DNA from: Dysgonomonas sp. | GTDB taxonomy: Bacteria; Bacteroidota; Bacteroidia; Bacteroidales; Dysgonomonadaceae | Assembly: GCA_031546965.1 (NCBI GenBank) | Contig: JAVBJR010000595.1 | Coordinates: forward strand, 7,041 to 71,040 | Direction of reading: 5' to 3' | Length of the DNA stretch: 64,000 nucleotides | Shown: piece after piece, positions 29,131 through 49,116 of the stretch | Layout: each line of letters begins with the position of its first letter | Position numbering within the stretch: position 1 is the first letter of the stretch | The notes under the pieces: model-generated | Told to the model about the DNA's origin: nothing | The model's input: the letters and a program-made list of their open reading frames with translations, nothing else | The model's database searches: none | Program-made: the position numbers and the translations under genes

Positions 29131-29172
29131 GAGTTACGAGTTACAAGTTACCAAGTCTTGTAACTTATAACT
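29131..29172. repeat. Heptamer array (GAGTTAC)n with inverted half
   Basis: GAGTTAC GAGTTAC AAGTTAC ... TTGTAAC TTATAAC. Confidence 0.75.
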
Positions 29173-39766: not shown

Positions 39767-42565
39767 TTACATTTGCAAAAAGAAGTCATTTAAGTGTTGA
39801 TGTGAGGGGATATCCAGCTTTTTTCGTAGTCTATACCTGCTATTTTCTACTGCTCTCACCGAAATGTTCATAAGAGCAGCTATTTCTTTGGAGTCTAAAT
39901 TGAGCTTCAAACAGGCACAAAGACGCAGGTCGTTAGCTGTGAGTTGAGGGTAGGACTCTTTTATTTTTTTGAAAAAGTGTGTATGTTTCTGTTCGAATTT
40001 GATCAAGAATGTTTTCCAATCTTCTTCACTATCCAAATTGCTGTTAAGCAAGGTATTGATCTTTTGAAACAGAGGTGCTAAGGTTTTATTATTTTGTTTG
40101 GTGTAGAATTCTTCCACTTCGTTTTTAATATTAAGAATCAGCTCATTACGCTGTATAATGAATGAGGTTTGAGATAGTAGTTCTGCATTTTTTTCTTCTA
40201 CCTCTTGCTGGAGATGCTCATTGATAAGGTTTAAACGTTTGGATTCAAGTATACGCATTTTCTTGATATGCAGCTTTTTGTATTTATATTGAACGTACGC
40301 AATAATAGCTGCAATAAATAGCATGAACAATACAAAATAGGCTGTAATTGCCCAGCCCGACTGATACCAAGGAGCTAATATCTCGAAAGAGAATCGGATT
40401 TCTTGGGACTTGTTTCCTTGACGGTCTATTGCGACCAGTATAAAGGTGTATTTACCCTTAGGAAGACGTTCGTAAGTAACATGGTTTTGATTCTTAACGG
40501 CATACCATTGATCGTCTAAGCCTTCGAGTTTATACAAGAATGACAGGTTTCGGGTCAGCGTTTCGGCTGTAGAAAAACTAAAGTTAATGGTATTGAATGA
40601 GTGGCTTATCTGATTAAAATTGTTGTCAAGATAGTCTGATTCTCCATTAGAATTGGATATTTTGATCGATTTGAAGTAGGATTGTGCTATCGGTTTGTAG
40701 TCTGCCGTTAATTTATTTTGGCACAATAAGAAGCCGTTATCTAAGCAAATAAGACTCAAATCATCGTCCAAATTGACGATATTTTCATAATTGTCAACCA
40801 TCGAGAAGTTTTTGTACCCTATATCTATAGTAAATTTTATTTGAGCCCTATTGTCAGCATAAGTTACATTGTAAACAAGGTTATTACCTATGATCCAAAA
40901 ATTTTCGGGAGATATATTAACCACCTCTTTGAGTCCGGTAATATCCCGAAAGCACTCGTTCAAAGCATTTTCGGGAACAATAGATCCGTCGATATCATTA
41001 TAAGTATAGAATTTGTTATTGCCCAGAAAGGCAACCCTTCCACCTACTTTAAACAATTTCAATTTGTACGGGATGTCCTGCTGACCTTCGCTTCCATAAT
41101 ATTTGAATGATTCTATTTTAGAGAAGTCGTTATTGAGCCGGGTTCGGTATATGCCCTTATTCATGTGTTGAAACCAAACATTATTAAGATGATCGGTCTG
41201 CACTTTATTAATAGGTTCGAGTACCTCATTCAAATTATGGATGGTTTTGGTTTTTTTATCTAAAGTTATTACGTTGACGTAAGTACCCAATAGGAGATGA
41301 TCGGGATCTTTTTCGAGTATATAAAATACTCCTGCATTAATATTATAAGGAGCCGTTACAGACAGGTTTTTATCTATTACAAGTAATCCCCAATTATGAG
41401 AGCAATACAACTGATTGTCAATAACATTGAGACTCCAAACCTGCCCTTCTGTTTTAGGTACAAACCTAAATTTAGAGAGGGCATTCATGCTATATAAGTC
41501 ATTTTTTTCGATATAGTATACCCCTTGATTTGTTGCCACAAAAAGCTTGTTGTCGTATAATGCAGCCGAATATACAGCACCTATTTTTCCCTTAGGGTCT
41601 GTTATACAGCTAATTCCGTTCAAGTACTGTATACAGGATATTCCTCGGTCTAATCCTGCCCAAATATTGTAAGCATGATCTTCGTATATAGACAATACGG
41701 TATTGTTGTGCAGGTAAGTTTCGGTATTGAAGTGATTGGTTATGTTTCCATTTGGCGACAATTCGTATACTCCCCCGAGAATTGTGCCAAAGTAATAATT
41801 GCCGTTATGAGCAGCCAGTCCGCAATTGATATTATTGTCAATCAGTTCATTATTGTTATTCCAGACCTTAAATTCTACTCCGTCGTAAATATAAAGTCCC
41901 ATAGACGATGTGCCTATAATGTACTTATTATCAGGAGAGGGAAGCACTGTTTTGACTTCTGTCTTTGAAAATATTTCGCTGCCTGCTATTTTAACATAAC
42001 GATCTCCTTCTATTTTAAAAATACTTCCACCAATTTCTTGCACCCATAGTTCGTTGTTGACTTTTATCAAAAGAAGGATACTTTTCTGTTCGGGCAATAT
42101 ATATACATTATTTTGATCGTAGATATAGATATTTCTGAAAGACTGAAAATAGATCAAGTTATCTTTTTTCCAGATTCTCCAAATGTCGTCATTGTGTAGT
42201 GGACCTCCCGGTAAATTATCACTTAAGGAGGTGTATTTGAGAAGACCGCTGATGCCTCTATCCCATCGACCAAATTCTTCGTATCCACCCGTATAGATGG
42301 TCTGATTGGAGGCAGCCGACACAGCCCTCACCACATCTGCTTTATGTAATTTGTTGAGATGCCAGTCTATCCCATCGAACTCAAGCAACCCTAAATCGTT
42401 TCCTATGTATATTATCCCCTTTTCGTCTTCGCTCAAAGACCAGTTTTTGTTGCCGGCTTGGTAGTCGTTTCTGTTAAAGTTAATAATGTTAGGATTGTTG
42501 GCTGATATGGTGATGAATGATAATATAAAGACAGTTATTGCTGTCAAAAACATATATCGAGTCAT
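39767..42565 (-). CDS. Membrane-spanning one-component regulator: beta-propeller sensor + Y_Y_Y + TM + LuxR-type HTH
   Basis: YQAGNKNW, YKLEGLDDQW...YERLP.GKYTF (Y_Y_Y), PWY + TM, LTANDLRLCACLKLNLDSKEIA.LMNIS.RAVE..RYRLRKKL; no histidine kinase. Confidence 0.9.
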   Translation of the reverse strand: MTRYMFLTAITVFILSFITISANNPNIINFNRNDYQAGNKNWSLSEDEKGIIYIGNDLGLLEFDGIDWHLNKLHKADVVRAVSAASNQTIYTGGYEEFGRWDRGISGLLKYTSLSDNLPGGPLHNDDIWRIWKKDNLIYFQSFRNIYIYDQNNVYILPEQKSILLLIKVNNELWVQEIGGSIFKIEGDRYVKIAGSEIFSKTEVKTVLPSPDNKYIIGTSSMGLYIYDGVEFKVWNNNNELIDNNINCGLAAHNGNYYFGTILGGVYELSPNGNITNHFNTETYLHNNTVLSIYEDHAYNIWAGLDRGISCIQYLNGISCITDPKGKIGAVYSAALYDNKLFVATNQGVYYIEKNDLYSMNALSKFRFVPKTEGQVWSLNVIDNQLYCSHNWGLLVIDKNLSVTAPYNINAGVFYILEKDPDHLLLGTYVNVITLDKKTKTIHNLNEVLEPINKVQTDHLNNVWFQHMNKGIYRTRLNNDFSKIESFKYYGSEGQQDIPYKLKLFKVGGRVAFLGNNKFYTYNDIDGSIVPENALNECFRDITGLKEVVNISPENFWIIGNNLVYNVTYADNRAQIKFTIDIGYKNFSMVDNYENIVNLDDDLSLICLDNGFLLCQNKLTADYKPIAQSYFKSIKISNSNGESDYLDNNFNQISHSFNTINFSFSTAETLTRNLSFLYKLEGLDDQWYAVKNQNHVTYERLPKGKYTFILVAIDRQGNKSQEIRFSFEILAPWYQSGWAITAYFVLFMLFIAAIIAYVQYKYKKLHIKKMRILESKRLNLINEHLQQEVEEKNAELLSQTSFIIQRNELILNIKNEVEEFYTKQNNKTLAPLFQKINTLLNSNLDSEEDWKTFLIKFEQKHTHFFKKIKESYPQLTANDLRLCACLKLNLDSKEIAALMNISVRAVENSRYRLRKKLDIPSHQHLNDFFLQM

Positions 42566-42763
42566 AGTTTCTCTGACTTTTTATTGCATTTATTTGAACG
42601 GTTTCTGTAATGAATGGGATAAAGATATAGAAAAATAGATTAATTTTGATGCTCCGAAGCACTATAAGGATGGATGTGTATTTGTTGCACAGATAAGTGC
42701 CATAAATAAAGAGAGGTACCATCTCAAATAGAATAGTTTTTTTAGCTCGAAAATAATAAACGA

Positions 42764-44200
42764 ATGATAGAATTAGGTGCAAATGTGAATATACACGATG
42801 TTTTAGCTCATTTTCGTATTACAACAGAAGACATGCTAAAGGTGTTAAACGAAGCTTTGGCTAAAGGTGGAGATTATGCCGACCTTTATTTTGAGCATAC
42901 TATAAACAGCAGCATATCGCTTCGGGATGGAGAGGTAAACCGCACATCGTCCAATATCGATTATGGAGTAGGCGTGAGGGTTGTAGTTGGCGATCAGACA
43001 GGCTATGCCTATGTAGAAAATACAACATTGCCCGATATGTTGCGTGCTGCACAAACTGCTGCCCGAATTGCACATACCTCGAAACAAAGCTGCTCTGCAA
43101 ATATAACTGAAACACATTTTGCCAATCACTATAAAATAAGTAAGTCTTGGCAAGACATCTCTGTAAATGAGAAAAAGGTTTTTATCGAAAAACTGAATGC
43201 CCGAATTTTTGAACTCGATTCGAGAGTGATAAAAGCTTCGGTAAGTTTAAATCATTCGACCTCCTATATATTATTTTTTAATTCCGATGGTGTTCTTTCG
43301 TGGGACTATCGCCCGATGGCAGTAATGTACGGAGGATGTACTATGGAGCAAAGCGGTAAAATAGAAAATGGTTTTGCATCACGAGCCTATCGCAAGGGCT
43401 TTGAGTTTTTAGATAACAATTTGATCGAAACCTTAGCACAAGAGTCGGTTTCACAAACCGCTCTGATGTTTGATGCCGTGAAACCCAAAGGAGGCGAAAT
43501 GCCCGTTGTAATGGGAGCCGGAGGGTCGGGCATATTATTGCATGAGGCTATCGGACATGCTTTTGAGGCAGATTTTAACCGTAAGAATGTCTCCATATTT
43601 TCTGACCTGTTAGGTAAGTCTATCTGTAACCCCAATATTAATGTGGTTGACGATGGCACCATAGAATTTGCCCGTGGAGCTATTAATTTTGATGATGAAG
43701 GCATCGAAAGCCAAAAGACATATATTGTAAGAAACGGCATTCTCGAAAGTTACTTGCACGACCGGATAAGTGCCAAATATTACGGCGTAAAACCCACCGG
43801 TAACGGACGCCGCCAATCGTTTCGCCATGTACCTATGCCACGTATGCGCGTGACGTATATGGAGTCGGGCAACGTGACCAATGAAGAGATGATTGCGAGC
43901 GTAAAGCAAGGGGTGTATGTAGATAATTTCAGCAACGGACAGGTACAGATCGGAGCAGGCGATTTTACGTTTTATGTAAAAACAGGCTATCTGATCGAAA
44001 ATGGAAAACTTACCCAACCTATAAAAGATATCAATATCATAGGAAACGGACCTAAGGCTTTAGCCGACATTACCATGGTGGGCAATAATCTCAAAATAGA
44101 CGAAAGCTCGTGGACTTGTGGTAAAGACGGACAAAGTGTACCCGTTGGACAAGGGCTACCATCGGTGTTAGTCAGTAAATTGACAGTGGGAGGAGAATAA
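42764..44200 (+). CDS. tldD: TldD metalloprotease
   Basis: YADLYFEH, G.GVRVV.GDQTGYA, HEAIGH zinc motif, FDDEG, GNGRRQS....PMPRM, CGKDGQSVPVG.G.P. Confidence 0.95.
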   Translation: MIELGANVNIHDVLAHFRITTEDMLKVLNEALAKGGDYADLYFEHTINSSISLRDGEVNRTSSNIDYGVGVRVVVGDQTGYAYVENTTLPDMLRAAQTAARIAHTSKQSCSANITETHFANHYKISKSWQDISVNEKKVFIEKLNARIFELDSRVIKASVSLNHSTSYILFFNSDGVLSWDYRPMAVMYGGCTMEQSGKIENGFASRAYRKGFEFLDNNLIETLAQESVSQTALMFDAVKPKGGEMPVVMGAGGSGILLHEAIGHAFEADFNRKNVSIFSDLLGKSICNPNINVVDDGTIEFARGAINFDDEGIESQKTYIVRNGILESYLHDRISAKYYGVKPTGNGRRQSFRHVPMPRMRVTYMESGNVTNEEMIASVKQGVYVDNFSNGQVQIGAGDFTFYVKTGYLIENGKLTQPIKDINIIGNGPKALADITMVGNNLKIDESSWTCGKDGQSVPVGQGLPSVLVSKLTVGGE

Positions 44201-44257
44201 TCAGAATACTTAAATATATCTTAACTAAGCAAAAGATCTTAATAGACAAATGACCTT

Positions 44258-44965
44258 ATGAAAAAGCATTTATTTCTTTCGTTACTTCTGTTTGCAGTAT
44301 CCATTATCTCTTATTCCCAAGAAATTCAACTGCATTTCGACCCCCGTCATGCTGTAAACAGCGATGTTGCCGCTCGAAATTACTTTACGGCTACATTCCA
44401 AATGTTTAAACCCGACAAGTGGGGATCAACTTTCGGATTTGTAGATTTTGATTTCAGCCAAAGCAAAGGCAATATCGGTTTGGCTTATATGGAAATTGCC
44501 CGAAATATAAAAGTAGGCAAAAGCCCTATTATGCCTCACCTTGAATTTAATGGTGGGGTTGGGACTTCAAATTCTTCGGGATTTTCGATACCTAACGCTT
44601 ACCTTGTTGGGGCAGCGTACGATCATGCTTTCGGCAGTGTATTTATCAATACTTATTTGACTTATAAATATAACGCATTCGAGAAAGTAAGCAACGACGT
44701 GCAATGGACAGGATGCTGGAATACTAACCTGTTCAACAACAAGTTAACCCTTACCGGTTTTATTGATATTTGGACCGAAAATAAAAATCGTGCAACAGGC
44801 GAAGGGGGCAAAAAGGTTATCTTATTGACCGAGCCTCAGTTTTGGTATAATGTAGATTCGCATTTGTCTTTTGGTAGTGAGATCGAAATTTCGAATAATT
44901 TCTATCCCTACTATGGCAACGAAGTATATGTATTCCCCACTATTGCAGGGAAATGGACGTTTTAA
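44258..44965 (+). CDS. DUF5020 family outer-membrane protein (Tsx/nucleoside-channel-like)
   Basis: Signal peptide; QLHFD, T.QMFKPDKWGSTFGFVDFDF, AYMEIAR, TEPQFWY, C-terminal KWTF beta-signal. Confidence 0.8.
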   Translation: MKKHLFLSLLLFAVSIISYSQEIQLHFDPRHAVNSDVAARNYFTATFQMFKPDKWGSTFGFVDFDFSQSKGNIGLAYMEIARNIKVGKSPIMPHLEFNGGVGTSNSSGFSIPNAYLVGAAYDHAFGSVFINTYLTYKYNAFEKVSNDVQWTGCWNTNLFNNKLTLTGFIDIWTENKNRATGEGGKKVILLTEPQFWYNVDSHLSFGSEIEISNNFYPYYGNEVYVFPTIAGKWTF

Positions 44966-44976
44966 TCATTATAAAT

Positions 44977-44999
44977 AGACGCAAGCATTGCGTCTCTAC
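44977..44999. repeat. GTAG-type REP (GTAGAGACG class)
   Basis: AGACGCAAGCATTGCGTCTCTAC; its reverse complement differs from 51291-51314 by one T. Confidence 0.8.
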
Positions 45000-45014
45000 A
45001 GCTCAGAACTCCCT

Positions 45015-45046
45015 ACTCGTAACTCGTAACTTGTAACTCGTAACTT
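45015..45046. repeat. Heptamer array (TCGTAAC)x4
   Basis: ACTCGTAACTCGTAACTTGTAACTCGTAACTT, ending 8 nt before the NCS2 ATG. Confidence 0.8.
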
Positions 45047-45054
45047 AAAAAAAT

Positions 45055-46380
45055 ATGTTAGAGAAAATTTTTAAACTAAAAGAACATAATACAACAATCC
45101 GAAAAGAACTTATTGCCGGATTTATTACTTTTCTCACGATGTCCTATATTCTTGTTGTAAATCCCAATGTACTGGGTGAGACAGGTATGGATAAGTCTGC
45201 TTTGTTTACTGCCACCGCCTTGGGTGCGGTGGCAGGTACACTGTTTATGGCATTTTTTGCTAATCTGCCCATTGCTCAAGCATCGGGTATGGGTTTGAAT
45301 ACTTTCTTTGCGGTAAATGTGGTACTGAAAATGGGGTATTCGTGGCAGTTTGCCCTCACGGCAGTATTTTTGGAAGGTCTTATATTTATAGCACTTACAT
45401 TTTTTAATGTGCGTGAACTTATTCTCAAAAGCATTCCAATAGTACTCAAAGATGCTATACCGGTGGGTATAGGGCTTTTTATAGCACTTATTGGGTTGAA
45501 GACTGCCGGAATCATAGTACCAAACCCGCATACGCTGATAGAAGTGGGAGATTTGTCTAACCCTAATGTATGGGTTGCCTTTATAGGGTTGTTCTGTGCC
45601 GGTGTGTTATTGGCAAAAGACGTAAAGGCGGCTATCCTTATTGCAATCGTAGTATCTGCTATTTTTGCAGCTATCTTCGGGATATTCAATCCGGTAGAAG
45701 AGCTGAGCAAGAGTGGTGTTGTGAGCCTGCCTCCATCACTTAGCCCTATTTTCGCCAAGTTTGAGTGGACTCAGGTCTTCACGTTCGATATGCTTATCAT
45801 CGTGTTTACTTTCTTGCTTATTAATCTTTTCGATACTATCGGTACACTGATAGGTGTTGTTTCTAAAGCCGGACTTTTGGATAAGGACGGAAATTTTCCG
45901 CAAGCCAAAAGAGCTTTATTTGCCGATGCACTGGGTACAACCGTAGGAGCAATACTAGGTACTAGTACAGTAACATCTTACGTAGAAAGTACGGCGGGAG
46001 TAGCATCCGGAGGGCGTACCGGTTTAACGGCTGTGAGCACAGCTTTGATGTTTTGTGCAGCATTATTTTTTGCGCCTCTATTTTTGATGATTCCTGCATC
46101 TGCAACAGCTCCGGCTCTCATTATTGTTGGTCTGTTTATGATATCATCGGTTGTAAAAATCAATTTTTCGGACATTACCGAAAGCCTGCCTGCATTTATT
46201 ACCATCACCTTTATGCCTTTTACTTATAGCATTGCTCAAGGAATTATATTTGGTATCTTGAGTTTTACCATTATTAAAGTATTCTCGGGTAAATATAAAG
46301 ATGTGAGTGCAGCCATATTTGTAATATCGCTTCTATTTATAGTGAAACTGGTATTGGATGCCATACATATTTTTGGATAA
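45055..46380 (+). CDS. NCS2 family permease (AzgA/PbuG-like purine type)
   Basis: E.IAGF.TFLTMSYILVVNP, ASGMGLNTFF, GIGLFIA.IG, DTIGTL.G, GTSTVTSYVES.AGV.SGGRTGLT. Confidence 0.93.
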   Translation: MLEKIFKLKEHNTTIRKELIAGFITFLTMSYILVVNPNVLGETGMDKSALFTATALGAVAGTLFMAFFANLPIAQASGMGLNTFFAVNVVLKMGYSWQFALTAVFLEGLIFIALTFFNVRELILKSIPIVLKDAIPVGIGLFIALIGLKTAGIIVPNPHTLIEVGDLSNPNVWVAFIGLFCAGVLLAKDVKAAILIAIVVSAIFAAIFGIFNPVEELSKSGVVSLPPSLSPIFAKFEWTQVFTFDMLIIVFTFLLINLFDTIGTLIGVVSKAGLLDKDGNFPQAKRALFADALGTTVGAILGTSTVTSYVESTAGVASGGRTGLTAVSTALMFCAALFFAPLFLMIPASATAPALIIVGLFMISSVVKINFSDITESLPAFITITFMPFTYSIAQGIIFGILSFTIIKVFSGKYKDVSAAIFVISLLFIVKLVLDAIHIFG

Positions 46381-46386
46381 AAAAAA

Positions 46387-47715
46387 ATGACAATTACATC
46401 AGAACATAAAAATATAGCCCAATGGGCAATGGATATAGCCTTGAAAAACGGCTGCTCTGCTTCGCGAGTATCCCTTACAGTTGCCAACAACAATTCGTTT
46501 GAGTACCGAAATACTCAACTAGACAAACTACACCAAAGTTCTGAAAACAAGCTCTATATAGAATTATATGTAGATGGTAGATACGGAACTCTGTCGACCA
46601 ACAGATTGGAAAAATCGGAACTCGAACCCTTTATTAAAGACGGAATTGTATCCACCCGATTTCTTGCCTCCGATGTGTGCCGTCAATTGCCCGATATAGC
46701 TCGCTGTTATAAATCGACGAAAAACGAGGATCTCGATCTGTTCGACCCTACATTTTTTAATTATACGGTAGATCAAAAATTGGCGATAGCAAAAGCCTCT
46801 GTTGAAGAGATTTACGGCACAGACGATCGTATAGTATCGGTAGTATCGAGCTACGACGACGGATGCGGTGCCGAATACATGGTGGCAAGTAACGGATTTG
46901 AGGGCGAAGTGCAAGACACGGCATATAGCTTAACGGCTGAGGTTGCTCTGAAAACCGAAGGTGATGCCCGTCCCGAATCGTATTGGTACGACAGCAAATT
47001 GTATTGGGCTGATTTGCAAACCGAAGGAATTGCCAAAAAGGCTTTGGAAAGAGCATTTCAAAAACTGGGGCAAACCAAGATTAAGTCGGGAAAATACAAT
47101 ATGATCCTCGATAATACGGTATCTATGAAGCTGTTGTCTCCACTTCTCTCGGCAATGTATGGAAGTGCTATTCAGCAAAAAAGTACATTCTTATTGAATA
47201 GGTTGGGCGATAAAATTGTATCAGACAGGCTCACGGTATTGGATAATCCGCATCAGAAACGCTCTTTCGGGTCACGATGGTACGATGGTGAGGGCATTGC
47301 TACTAAAGATCAGGTATTGATAGACAAGGGCGTTCTCAATACCTACTTTATTGATACTTATAATGCTCTTAAGATGGACGTTTTGCCCACTATTGCATCA
47401 CCATCGATCATAAAGCTGGAACATGGCTCTAAAAACCATTCTCATTTGTTGAAAACAATGGATGGTGGTATTTGGGTAACAGGTTTCAACGGTGGAAATA
47501 CCAACAGTACTACCGGAGATTTTTCGTTCGGGATAGAGGGTTTTGTAATCGAAAATGGCGTTGCAACAACACCTATCAGCGAAATGAATATAACCGGAAA
47601 TATTCTTGATTTGTGGAGTAATTTAGTTGAGGTTGGTAATGATCCTCTTTCGTTAAATGCTTCGAGGCAAATACCGTCTTTGCTATTTGAGGGTGTAAGT
47701 TTTAGCGGTTTGTAA
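46387..47715 (+). CDS. pmbA: TldE/PmbA family protein
   Basis: LYVDGRYGTLSTN, DGEG, GVLNTY, GGNTNSTTGDFSFG.EGF.IENG, EMNITGN; no HExxH. Confidence 0.93.
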   Translation: MTITSEHKNIAQWAMDIALKNGCSASRVSLTVANNNSFEYRNTQLDKLHQSSENKLYIELYVDGRYGTLSTNRLEKSELEPFIKDGIVSTRFLASDVCRQLPDIARCYKSTKNEDLDLFDPTFFNYTVDQKLAIAKASVEEIYGTDDRIVSVVSSYDDGCGAEYMVASNGFEGEVQDTAYSLTAEVALKTEGDARPESYWYDSKLYWADLQTEGIAKKALERAFQKLGQTKIKSGKYNMILDNTVSMKLLSPLLSAMYGSAIQQKSTFLLNRLGDKIVSDRLTVLDNPHQKRSFGSRWYDGEGIATKDQVLIDKGVLNTYFIDTYNALKMDVLPTIASPSIIKLEHGSKNHSHLLKTMDGGIWVTGFNGGNTNSTTGDFSFGIEGFVIENGVATTPISEMNITGNILDLWSNLVEVGNDPLSLNASRQIPSLLFEGVSFSGL

Positions 47716-47817
47716 ACCTCACCCCAACCCTTCTCCAAAGGAGAGGGGGCTAGATATGAGGGTATTTAGAACGCCCTCTCTGTACTCCCTCTCCTTTGGA
47801 GAGGGCTGGGGTGAGGT
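47716..47817. repeat. CCCTCTCC-type long palindromic element
   Basis: ACCTCACCCCAACCCTTCTCCAAAGGAGAGGG ... CCCTCTCCTTTGGAGAGGGCTGGGGTGAGGT; shares internal CCCTCTCTGTAC with the 17058 copy in the opposite orientation. Confidence 0.85.
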
Positions 47818-47820
47818 GAC

Positions 47821-49116
47821 CTATTTCCGCCGTATTACATTTATATCTCCTGCCTCTTTGTAATGCTTACCTTCGGAGCCAAGTGCGTCTATGGCATAAA
47901 AGTATACTCCTGTATTTACATACCTTCCATTGTATTTTCCGTCCCATCCTTGTGCGGGATCAGTCCATTCATAAAGTTTATTTCCCCATCGGTTGAAAAT
48001 AGTACATTTGAATTTGACCAACGATTTGTACGTAACTTTAAATACTCTAGCTTCTTCGCTGTTTGCATCGGGAATTAAAATATTAGGTATTTTAAGTTCC
48101 GATTCGGAGATCGACAGTTGCACATTTGCAGTATCGGCACAAACAGAACTTCCATCGGCTACTTCTAATACCACTTTAAATGTTCCGGCATTATTGAATG
48201 TATATTTTATATTTTTATCCGTATAACGAACAATGGGGTTTTGCATATCCTTTGTATTGTAAATAAACCACGTATAAAAACGAGCTGTGGGTTCGTTTCC
48301 ATATCCCGAAAAAGTAACTTCCGCAGGAGCAGATCCTCCCAACTCAACCGGTTTCAGATTAGCATCAAGTTGTACGGCATCCACAAAGGCTTTGGTTCTC
48401 ACGGCTATATAGTTTCTACTCTCTATAAAAATGTTCAGCCCAAAATGTTCGGCAAACTGGTCGCCGCTTAATGTAAACTTGGTGTCCATAAAGGGAGCAT
48501 CAATTGTTCTGTCGATACCAATATCAACCGGACCTATTGTTTTGGTTTCGGGTTTAAATTCTTTCGTTTTTCCATCCAAATCAGGATATTCTATTGTGTA
48601 TTTTCTGATTATTGAGTACTTGCCGCCGGTGGTTGCATAATAGGGTAAATCGTCCGATTTGTCAATTAATAATTTAAGATAGTCACATTTATCTTCTCCC
48701 TCCGAAGGTTGAATAGAATTTAGTTTGGGCAGATGTCGGCTATAGTCAATTATCCATATCACGGCATTATTTGTTCCATTTACTTCGGCAAAATATCCTT
48801 TGGAATCTTCGAGATTAGTAATTGTATAGGTGGTACTATTTCCACTGATGCTTGTGGTTATATCAGAATAGGGTATCAGTACCTTGTCGGACAGAGATTG
48901 TGTATACTTATAAAAACGCACAACAGCAGCACTGGAGGTATAGGAAATGGATGCTCCCGAAAAAGTATTGAGAAGGTAAATCTTAGAAATACCTGTACCT
49001 CCCAGTGCATCAGTATATTCAGCGGGTTTTCCTCCAATCCCACCCGACACGGTATATTGTGCCCATGATGTAATCGAAAATACAAATAAAAGTAAGCTGG
49101 TGAGAAGATATTTCAT
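47821..49116 (-). CDS. Secreted protein with PKD domain and gliding-motility-associated (T9SS type B, CHU_C-like) C-terminal domain
   Basis: Signal peptide; YTFNNAGTFKVVL (PKD); IFNRWG.KLYEW....QGWDGKYNG....GVYFY.I.A.G.....Y...GDINVIR. Confidence 0.85.
   Translation of the reverse strand: MKYLLTSLLLFVFSITSWAQYTVSGGIGGKPAEYTDALGGTGISKIYLLNTFSGASISYTSSAAVVRFYKYTQSLSDKVLIPYSDITTSISGNSTTYTITNLEDSKGYFAEVNGTNNAVIWIIDYSRHLPKLNSIQPSEGEDKCDYLKLLIDKSDDLPYYATTGGKYSIIRKYTIEYPDLDGKTKEFKPETKTIGPVDIGIDRTIDAPFMDTKFTLSGDQFAEHFGLNIFIESRNYIAVRTKAFVDAVQLDANLKPVELGGSAPAEVTFSGYGNEPTARFYTWFIYNTKDMQNPIVRYTDKNIKYTFNNAGTFKVVLEVADGSSVCADTANVQLSISESELKIPNILIPDANSEEARVFKVTYKSLVKFKCTIFNRWGNKLYEWTDPAQGWDGKYNGRYVNTGVYFYAIDALGSEGKHYKEAGDINVIRRK

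What the first reader, a model, noticed from the sequence alone, without database searches (positions are those of the whole stretch)
42764..47715. tldD and tldE split by a two-membrane nucleobase/nucleoside import pair
Seen: tldD (HEAIGH intact) - 57 nt - DUF5020 outer-membrane barrel - 89 nt (REP + heptamers) - NCS2 permease - 6 nt - tldE, all on one strand with no clear terminator until 47716. Established: TldD and TldE work as a heterodimeric protease on unfolded N-termini, are usually adjacent, and mature microcin B17; Tsx-like channels and AzgA-type NCS2 permeases import nucleosides and purines. Inference: the near-coupled NCS2-tldE junction suggests a selected unit, possibly importing and processing peptide-nucleobase conjugates (salvage or detoxification of peptidyl-nucleoside compounds) or linking proteolysis to purine supply. 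I know of no described system with this composition.
Basis: partly seen in the sequence, partly recalled or inferred. Interest (0 to 1): 0.7.

Follow-up and report, generated by a model that had tools for sequence, protein, structure and literature searches.

The report
Adenine-uptake gene pair inserted between tldD/tldE
The four genes are real, but a self-contained two-gene purine-uptake module (an outer-membrane barrel plus an inner-membrane adenine-type permease) landed between the two protease genes in one Dysgonomonas lineage, so this is an ordinary rearrangement and not a new protease-transport system.

Summary
On the + strand lie tldD (HEAIGH intact), DUF5020, an AzgA-type NCS2 permease and tldE, with gaps of 57, 89 and 6 nt.

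The functional reading is not supported.
- DUF5020 followed by NCS2 is an independent module. It is adjacent in 55 of 66 related loci and in 22 of the 33 sampled Bacteroidales genomes that hold both genes. In 49 of 64 stand-alone loci it has its own canonical promoter box.
- It lies between tldD and tldE only in the window's own genus (7 of 7 genomes) plus one other Dysgonomonas genome. Trees fit one origin.
- About 23 other genomes of the family keep tldD and tldE adjacent.
- Presence of tld genes and of DUF5020 is uncorrelated (odds ratio 0.42).
- Within the clade the spacers range from 6 to 2794 nt and extra genes sit between.
- In E. coli, tldD and tldE lie 1 Mb apart.

The sub-claim of a two-membrane nucleobase import pair is supported. 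DUF5020 models as a 12-strand barrel that resembles Tsx and NanC in fold. The permease is 45-47% identical to the E. coli adenine symporters AdeP and AdeQ.

In this strain the module has no promoter box of its own. It is therefore probably transcribed from the tldD promoter, which is an inference.

The parts
42641..42648 (+). Candidate Bacteroidetes -7 promoter box (TAATTTTG), 116 nt upstream of the tldD ATG. It is the only such box in the spacers upstream of the first three genes.
   Evidence: Pattern scan. A consensus match only; background is 0.074 boxes per 110 nt.
42764..44200 (+). tldD: catalytic subunit of the TldD/E metallopeptidase, with HEAIGH at residues 260-265 and no signal peptide
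44258..44965 (+). DUF5020: outer-membrane protein with a signal peptide, modelled as a 12-strand beta-barrel ending in Phe; proposed purine-base channel
   Evidence: Pfam PF16412 at 186 bits. AF2 model with pLDDT 84 and 12 strands. Foldseek matches to NanC, Tsx, FapF and KdgM.
44977..44995 (.). REP-like hairpin AGACGCAA-GCA-TTGCGTCT in the DUF5020-NCS2 spacer
   Evidence: 67 copies of the hairpin type in the genome. An RNA contig runs through it (record 4: 44864-45041).
45014..45046 (+). Array of TAACT(C/T)G heptamers, a dispersed repeat often found just upstream of start codons
   Evidence: 118 genomic copies of TAACTCGTAACT. Also present in contigs of other organisms from the same study.
45055..46380 (+). 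AzgA-type NCS2 permease closest to adenine:H+ symporters (AdeP/AdeQ-like)
   Evidence: 45-47% identity to E. coli AdeP/AdeQ against 34% to GhxP/GhxQ.
46387..47715 (+). tldE (pmbA): non-catalytic partner subunit, with no HExxxH motif
47716..47818 (.). Long REP-like palindrome between the convergent tldE and T9SS-cargo genes; probable bidirectional terminator
   Evidence: Its core word occurs 48 times in the genome.

Best explanation
Two unrelated units lie interleaved.

(1) DUF5020 plus NCS2 is a self-contained purine-base uptake module that is widespread in Bacteroidales. DUF5020 is a small 12-strand outer-membrane channel that lets the base, probably adenine, cross the outer membrane. The AdeP/AdeQ-like NCS2 carrier then symports it with H+ across the inner membrane for salvage.

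(2) tldD and tldE encode the ordinary cytoplasmic TldD/E peptidase.

In the ancestor of one Dysgonomonas lineage the module came to lie in the tldD-tldE interval. This interval also accepts other cargo in relatives. The order has since been inherited by descent.

In this strain the spacers are compact and the module lacks the canonical promoter box it carries elsewhere. All four genes are therefore probably transcribed from the tldD promoter. That is regulatory hitch-hiking, not biochemical coupling.

Shown: gene identities, the fold, the distribution of the arrangement, the lack of co-occurrence, the variable spacers, and the presence or absence of promoter boxes. Inferred: the substrate (adenine or another purine base), the channel role of DUF5020, and co-transcription in this strain.
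For: - Module conservation. DUF5020 and NCS2 are adjacent in 55 of 66 related loci, usually 10-30 nt apart. They are adjacent in 22 of the 33 genomes holding both genes in an even sample of 201 Bacteroidales genomes spread over many GTDB families.
- No other conserved neighbours. 65 flanking ORFs from 20 order-wide loci hit 113 Pfam families. None recurs more than 3 times and none is PmbA_TldD.
- Restricted split. The module lies between tldD and tldE in all 7 genomes of the window's genus and in Dysgonomonas sp. PH5-45 only. About 23 genomes of the family have tldD-tldE adjacent.
- One origin. The DUF5020 copies of split loci form one clade (SH-aLRT 98). Nine of the ten TldD sequences from split loci form one clade (98), and starred branches allow a single origin for all ten.
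- No co-occurrence. Among 61 family genomes, 23 have both, 17 have tld genes only, 16 have DUF5020 only and 5 have neither (odds ratio 0.42, p = 0.17).
- Loose architecture within the clade. The tldD-DUF5020 gap is 22-965 nt, with a DUF1003 gene or another ORF inserted. The NCS2-tldE gap is 6-2794 nt, with an opposite-strand OMP gene in D. macrotermitis. A different gene (DUF4419) sits between tldD and tldE in G043.
- Promoters. 49 of 64 stand-alone loci carry TAnnTTTG at a median 34 nt upstream of DUF5020. None of 7 split loci does. Background is 0.074 per 110 nt.
- Fold and substrate.
- Other nucleobase contexts. Some DUF5020 copies without an AzgA-type partner follow queC-queF or precede a xanthine/uracil-type NCS2.
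- E. coli tldD and tldE are unlinked.
Against: - In this strain no promoter box separates the genes, so they may really be one operon. Loss of the module's own promoter across the split clade could reflect selection for co-expression.
- Sister genera (D. mossii type, sp. 216) keep one tld gene 1-4 kb from the module in other orientations. The linkage is therefore older and more persistent than a single recent accident.
- In an unrelated family, two paralogous M24B peptidase genes bracket the same module. This is a coincidence I cannot explain.
- No transport assay exists for any DUF5020 protein. The literature mentions DUF5020 only in proteome and transcriptome lists.
Confidence: 0.8

Rival explanations
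1. One reading: tldD, DUF5020, NCS2 and tldE form a selected functional unit. It would import peptide-nucleobase or peptidyl-nucleoside compounds and process them with TldD/E, or it would tie proteolysis to purine supply.
For: - All four genes share one strand with short spacers and no promoter box before DUF5020 or NCS2.
- The order is kept in all 10 genomes of the clade that were seen.
- A second lineage has the module bracketed by two other cytoplasmic peptidase paralogs, M24B.
Against: - The arrangement is restricted to one genus-level clade plus one genome.
- The phyletic patterns of the two units are independent (odds ratio 0.42).
- The module stands alone with its own promoter in most Bacteroidales.
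- Spacers and inserted genes vary. D. macrotermitis has an opposite-strand gene between NCS2 and tldE, and D. capnocytophagoides has a terminator-like hairpin with a T-run after tldD.
- AzgA-type carriers take free purine bases (established knowledge; 45-47% identity to AdeP/AdeQ).
Confidence: 0.06
2. The genes are interleaved but transcribed separately even in this strain. DUF5020-NCS2 would start from a non-canonical promoter in the 3' end of tldD or in the 57-nt spacer. tldE would start from a box inside the 3' end of NCS2 (TATATTTG at 46245 or TATTTTTG at 46368).
For: - TAnnTTTG boxes lie at 46245 and 46368, just upstream of tldE, and at 43684 inside tldD.
- The nearest relatives L072 and L075 keep the motif that is conserved upstream of stand-alone Dysgonomonas promoters (AATTTATTCTGTCTAAATA).
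- RNA contigs do not bridge 44010-44226 or 46087-46437.
Against: - Boxes inside the Phe/Leu-rich NCS2 gene are expected from its composition: five occur in 1.3 kb.
- RNA depth is only 2-7, so the gaps in coverage are uninformative.
- No box lies in either spacer.
Confidence: 0.3
3. The linkage is ancestral to the whole Dysgonomonas radiation (genera g1, g5, g18 and PH5-45) and was later broken by inversions. On this view it was not a single insertion in the window's genus.
For: In D. mossii-type genomes tldE lies 1.1-3.1 kb upstream of DUF5020 on the opposite strand. In Dysgonomonas sp. 216 tldD lies 4 kb upstream. Such proximity is very unlikely by chance in a 4-5 Mb genome.
Against: A genus nested in the same TldD clade (G021) has overlapping tldD-tldE and no DUF5020 at all. 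Other g5 genomes have the module unlinked to either tld gene (G043, G057).
Confidence: 0.4

Closest known systems
E. coli Tsx (nucleoside-specific outer-membrane channel, PDB 1TLW) working with inner-membrane nucleoside/base carriers
   Same: A small monomeric 12-strand outer-membrane barrel: TM-score 0.60-0.64 between the DUF5020 model and Tsx. The logic is also the same: a dedicated outer-membrane channel feeding a proton-coupled inner-membrane carrier of nucleobase metabolism.
   Different: No detectable sequence homology: there is no Pfam Channel_Tsx hit and hhalign probability is 0.6%. NanC matches equally well by fold. In E. coli tsx is not encoded next to its carriers, whereas here the channel and carrier genes are 10-90 nt apart. 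The substrate is probably a free base, not a nucleoside.
E. coli AdeP (PurP) and AdeQ (YicO), adenine:H+ symporters of the AzgA-like branch of NCS2
   Same: 45-47% identity over the full length, E about 1e-138. Same Pfam family, and the same plant relatives AZG1/AZG2 among solved structures.
   Different: Specificity was not tested. Identity to the guanine/hypoxanthine carriers GhxP and GhxQ is 34%, so another purine is not excluded. In Bacteroidales the gene is paired with a dedicated barrel gene.
E. coli TldD/TldE (PmbA) heterodimeric metallopeptidase (Ghilarov et al. 2017, PMC5810440)
   Same: Same three-domain architecture in both subunits. The HExxxH motif is present only in TldD. No signal peptides.
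   Different: Nothing notable in the proteins. Only the gene order differs: adjacent in most Dysgonomonadaceae, 1 Mb apart in E. coli, and separated here by 2.2 kb of unrelated cargo.

Membership tests
TldD (peptidase M103/U62, catalytic subunit) | Three PmbA_TldD domains plus the HExxxH metal-binding motif | tested here: met
   PF01523, PF19290 and PF19289 all above cut-off. HEAIGH at residues 260-265. The best NCBIfam match is TldD at 402 bits, below the equivalog cut-off of 513.
TldE/PmbA (non-catalytic partner) | PmbA_TldD fold without HExxxH, encoded together with a TldD in the same genome | tested here: met
   PF19289 and PF19290 above cut-off, with PmbA as the best NCBIfam match. No HE..GH motif. 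The genome has exactly one TldD and one TldE.
DUF5020 (PF16412) | Match to the Pfam model above the gathering score | tested here: met
   186.5 bits against a cut-off of 36.7, covering 212 of 212 model positions.
Tsx channel family (Pfam Channel_Tsx) | Sequence membership in the Tsx family | tested here: not met
   No Pfam hit other than DUF5020. hhalign of the DUF5020 alignment against E. coli Tsx gives probability 0.6%.
Tsx channel family (Pfam Channel_Tsx) | 12-strand monomeric outer-membrane barrel fold | tested here: met
   The AF2 model has 12 strands and pLDDT 84. Foldseek to 1TLW gives TM 0.60-0.64 and E 6e-5. NanC and FapF score similarly, so the fold class is shared but is not specific to Tsx.
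Tsx channel family (Pfam Channel_Tsx) | Conducts nucleosides or bases across the outer membrane | not testable with these tools
   Only genomic context supports it: adjacency to NCS2 carriers and, in some lineages, to queC-queF.
AzgA-like NCS2 purine permeases (AdeP/AdeQ/GhxP/GhxQ, AZG1) | Full-length homology to characterised members | tested here: met
   PF00860 E 9e-43. AZG1 E 1.6e-64. AdeP/AdeQ 45-47% identity, GhxP/GhxQ 34%.
AzgA-like NCS2 purine permeases (AdeP/AdeQ/GhxP/GhxQ, AZG1) | Substrate specificity (adenine versus guanine/hypoxanthine) | tested here: inconclusive
   Higher similarity to the adenine carriers. The tree with E. coli members is poorly rooted, and no specificity residues were examined.
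Conserved functional gene cluster (tldD-DUF5020-NCS2-tldE as one system) | Arrangement conserved beyond close relatives | tested here: not met
   Found only in genus g1 (7 of 7) and in Dysgonomonas sp. PH5-45. Absent from 20 order-wide module loci and from about 23 family genomes with adjacent tldD-tldE.
Conserved functional gene cluster (tldD-DUF5020-NCS2-tldE as one system) | Co-occurrence of the components across genomes | tested here: not met
   23 both, 17 tld only, 16 DUF5020 only, 5 neither; odds ratio 0.42.
Conserved functional gene cluster (tldD-DUF5020-NCS2-tldE as one system) | Single transcript across all four genes | tested here: inconclusive
   All four genes appear in one metatranscriptome at depth 2-7. 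No contig bridges 44010-44226 or 46087-46437.

The most novel reading that the evidence does not exclude
Cytoplasmic peptide-degrading enzymes and the DUF5020-NCS2 purine-uptake module may be deliberately co-expressed in some Bacteroidales.

The module sits between the two homologous TldD/TldE genes in one Dysgonomonas clade, where it has lost its own promoter. In an unrelated family it independently sits between two paralogous M24B aminopeptidase genes.

This could reflect a shared nutrient-scavenging regulon, or uptake and processing of peptide-linked purine compounds.
Probability: 0.07. Interest if true: 0.65.

Novelty: new variant of a known kind. Interest (0 to 1): 0.3.

Why it matters
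The split of tldD and tldE is ordinary genome shuffling and needs no new biology.

The useful residue is a functional assignment for an uncharacterised Pfam family. DUF5020 is very probably the outer-membrane channel of a compact two-gene purine-base (adenine-type) uptake route that is widespread in Bacteroidales, including gut and insect-gut genera. No outer-membrane route for free nucleobases has been described for this order in the papers I could search. The prediction is cheap to test in Bacteroides genetics.

The case also shows that the tldD-tldE interval tolerates inserted cargo, and that tight spacing in one strain can mislead about function.

Tried and rejected
- Riboswitch or other known RNA in the spacers: an Rfam E-value scan of 42000-48500 gave only sub-threshold eukaryotic miRNA/snoRNA noise on the palindromes.
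- Sigma-70 type promoter scan: fewer hits than in shuffled sequence, and not applicable to Bacteroidetes. I replaced it with a TAnnTTTG scan.
- Transcript continuity: only one metatranscriptome holds the locus, and it is too thin to decide.
- Horizontal transfer of the whole four-gene block into Dysgonomonas sp. PH5-45: its TldD does not group with its GTDB genus mates, but the AU test does not reject that grouping (p = 0.067). Left open.
- Recurrent neighbours of the module. Clustering 513 flanking ORFs from 73 loci showed only lineage-local synteny (a putative CysS, EF-P, RadC and others, identified by eye from their N-termini) besides the Dysgonomonas tld genes.
- Sequence homology between DUF5020 and Tsx: not detectable.
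- Solved structures by sequence for DUF5020: none meaningful.
- Literature linking DUF5020, NCS2 or the tld genes in Bacteroides: nothing functional.
Full report
**What is there.** The + strand of 42764-47715 carries four intact ORFs at exactly the stated coordinates.
- ORF 1 (478 aa) has all three PmbA_TldD domains. Its best NCBIfam match is TldD, and HEAIGH lies at residues 260-265.
- ORF 2 (235 aa) is a full-length DUF5020 (PF16412, 186 bits against a cut-off of 36.7). It has an N-terminal signal-like helix and a C-terminal Phe.
- ORF 3 (441 aa) is an NCS2 permease of the AzgA type. Its best solved relatives are the plant adenine/guanine permeases AZG1 and AZG2.
- ORF 4 (442 aa) is PmbA/TldE-like and has no HExxxH motif.

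The gaps are 57, 89 and 6 nt. The 89-nt gap holds an 8-bp hairpin and a run of TAACT(C/T)G heptamers. Both are dispersed repeats of this genome, with 67 and 118 copies. A long palindrome, also a dispersed element, follows tldE.

**The transport pair is an independent, widespread module.** A scan of one genome per species returned 66 loci encoding DUF5020 relatives. In 55 of them an NCS2 gene 43-86% identical to the window's lies next to DUF5020 on the same strand. In 54 it is downstream, usually 10-30 nt away. These loci come from Dysgonomonas, Bacteroides, Parabacteroides, Petrimonas, Azobacteroides and MAGs labelled Prevotella.

An even sample of 201 Bacteroidales genomes from many GTDB families gave DUF5020 in 52 and the AzgA-type permease in 43. 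Thirty-three genomes had both, and in 22 of those the two genes are adjacent and co-oriented.

The module has no other conserved neighbours. The two ORFs on either side of 20 order-wide modules hit 113 different Pfam families. None recurs more than three times and none is a PmbA_TldD domain. Clustering 513 flanking ORFs from 73 loci showed only lineage-local synteny.

Where DUF5020 lacks the AzgA partner, it sometimes keeps a nucleobase context. It follows queC-queF (7-deazaguanine synthesis) in three genomes of two families. It precedes a xanthine/uracil-type NCS2 permease in another.

**What the two proteins look like.** The DUF5020 model (pLDDT 84) is a 12-strand barrel. Its best structural matches are the small substrate-specific channels NanC (TM 0.58-0.67), Tsx (0.60-0.64), FapF and KdgM. 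There is no detectable sequence homology to Tsx (hhalign probability 0.6%), so it works like Tsx but is not a member of that family.

The permease is 45-47% identical over its full length to the E. coli adenine:H+ symporters AdeP and AdeQ. It is 34% identical to the guanine/hypoxanthine carriers GhxP and GhxQ. The literature mentions DUF5020 only in lists: P. gingivalis OMV proteomes and a B. fragilis transcriptome. The channel role is therefore an inference from fold and context.

**The position between tldD and tldE is lineage-specific.** I sampled 61 genomes of the window's family (Dysgonomonadaceae).
- tld genes occur in 40 genomes and DUF5020 in 39.
- Both occur in 23, against 25.6 expected under independence (odds ratio 0.42, p = 0.17).
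- About 23 genomes have tldD and tldE adjacent or overlapping.
- The module lies between them in all seven genomes of the window's own GTDB genus, which includes D. capnocytophagoides and D. macrotermitis. It also does so in Dysgonomonas sp. PH5-45, which GTDB places in another genus.

The DUF5020 sequences of these loci form one clade (SH-aLRT 98). Nine of the ten TldD sequences also form one clade (98), with PH5-45 unresolved beside it, so a single origin suffices. An AU test does not clearly reject keeping PH5-45 with its genus mates (p = 0.067).

In sister genera the tld genes are tens of kilobases apart or on different contigs. In D. mossii-type genomes tldE sits 1.1-3.1 kb upstream of DUF5020 on the other strand. 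In Dysgonomonas sp. 216 tldD sits 4 kb upstream. The linkage may therefore be older than the genus and has been breaking up.

**The architecture is loose within the clade.**
- The tldD-DUF5020 spacer ranges from 22 to 965 nt. Three of the closer relatives carry a DUF1003 gene there, which is absent from this genome. D. macrotermitis carries a different 265-aa ORF.
- The NCS2-tldE spacer ranges from 6 nt (this strain only) to 2794 nt. In D. macrotermitis an outer-membrane barrel gene lies there on the opposite strand.
- D. capnocytophagoides has a hairpin plus T-run directly after tldD.
- Another Dysgonomonas (G043) has a DUF4419 gene, not the module, between tldD and tldE.
- The NCS2 gene has itself been exchanged. 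The window's copy is 86% identical to those of more distant clade members but only 70% to those of its three nearest relatives, whose TldD is 90-93% identical.

The interval behaves as a tolerant insertion and recombination site, not as a constrained operon.

**Transcription.** Stand-alone modules carry the canonical Bacteroidetes -7 box TAnnTTTG at a median 34 nt upstream of the DUF5020 start in 49 of 64 loci. Background is 0.074 per 110 nt. None of seven split loci has one.

In the window the only box upstream of the first three genes is TAATTTTG at 42641, before tldD. Boxes at 46245 and 46368 inside the 3' end of NCS2 precede tldE, but they may be compositional. I therefore infer that in this strain the module is read from the tldD promoter.

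The one metatranscriptome that holds the locus (invertebrate gut) shows near-identical RNA contigs in all four genes at depth 2-7. One contig runs through the REP hairpin. None bridges the tldD-DUF5020 or NCS2-tldE junctions. Co-transcription remains untested.

**Why the functional-unit reading fails.**
- The premise that the tld genes belong together physically is weak. In E. coli K-12, where the heterodimer was defined (PMC5810440), tldD lies at 3.39 Mb and tldE at 4.46 Mb.
- The arrangement is genus-level, the two units do not co-occur across genomes, and the tight 6-nt junction is unique to this strain.
- An AdeP-like carrier takes free bases, not peptide conjugates (established knowledge of the family).

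**One observation keeps a small door open.** In an unrelated Bacteroidales family, one genus (3 of 4 genomes sampled) has the same module bracketed by two paralogous M24B aminopeptidase genes. Two genomes of another genus in that family have the module elsewhere. Two independent cases of the module sitting between homologous cytoplasmic peptidase genes may be coincidence, or may reflect a property of tandem paralogs as insertion sites. I rate a real functional or regulatory link at about 7%.

**Verdict.** The import pair holds; the protease-transport system does not. The finding is an ordinary lineage-specific rearrangement that carries a worthwhile, testable annotation for DUF5020.

Noticed in passing
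L160 (G183:C10), L165 (G263:C9), L166 (G293:C2): In an unrelated Bacteroidales family, one genus has the DUF5020-NCS2 module bracketed by two paralogous M24B (AMP_N + Peptidase_M24) aminopeptidase genes that are 26% identical to each other. Two genomes of another genus in that family have the module elsewhere. In G293 only a 159-aa ORF with no NCS2 match sits where NCS2 lies in the other two, so NCS2 may be degraded there. This is a second case of the module sitting between homologous cytoplasmic peptidase genes.
   Followed up: partly
window 45055-46380 versus L072, L075, L077, L062: The window's NCS2 gene is phylogenetically discordant with its neighbours. It is 86% identical to the copies of more distant clade members but only 70% to those of the three nearest relatives, whose TldD is 90-93% identical. 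This suggests the permease gene was replaced by recombination within the clade.
   Followed up: partly
L126 (G061:C3), L127 (G208:C21), L140 (G162:C12): In two other Bacteroidales families DUF5020 lies directly downstream of queF on the same strand. In L126 queC precedes queF. This hints that some DUF5020 channels serve 7-deazapurine bases (preQ0, preQ1 or queuine).
   Followed up: partly
window 44977-44995 and 45014-45046; also 29144-29151 (- strand): The hairpin GACGCAAnnnTTGCGTC (67 genomic copies) and arrays of TAACT(C/T)G heptamers (118 copies of a 12-mer) are dispersed repeats. The heptamer array also occurs at high depth in contigs of other organisms from the same gut metagenome study, typically just upstream of start codons.
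   Followed up: partly
Upstream of DUF5020 in Dysgonomonas loci (e.g. L029, L034, L036, L013, L016, L033; also L072 and L075): A conserved motif of the form AAATTTATTCTGTTAAATA lies about 45 nt upstream of the -7 box of stand-alone DUF5020-NCS2 modules. It survives in the window's nearest relatives. It may be an operator for an unknown, perhaps purine-responsive, regulator.
   Followed up: no
L075:6598-7317, L077:7119-7838, L062:7224-7937: Three of the closer relatives carry a DUF1003 membrane-protein gene between tldD and DUF5020. No homologue exists anywhere in the window's genome.
   Followed up: yes
whole genome G000: The assembly is 7.76 Mb in 1298 contigs, whereas the six other genomes of the genus are 4.1-5.1 Mb. 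Completeness is 94% and contamination 0% by the tool's figures, so this is either an unusually large genome or an assembly holding more than one strain.
   Followed up: no
L002 (D. capnocytophagoides), directly after the tldD stop: A GGAGGA...TCCTCC hairpin followed by a run of eight T lies right after tldD. In that species tldD is therefore probably terminated before the module.
   Followed up: no
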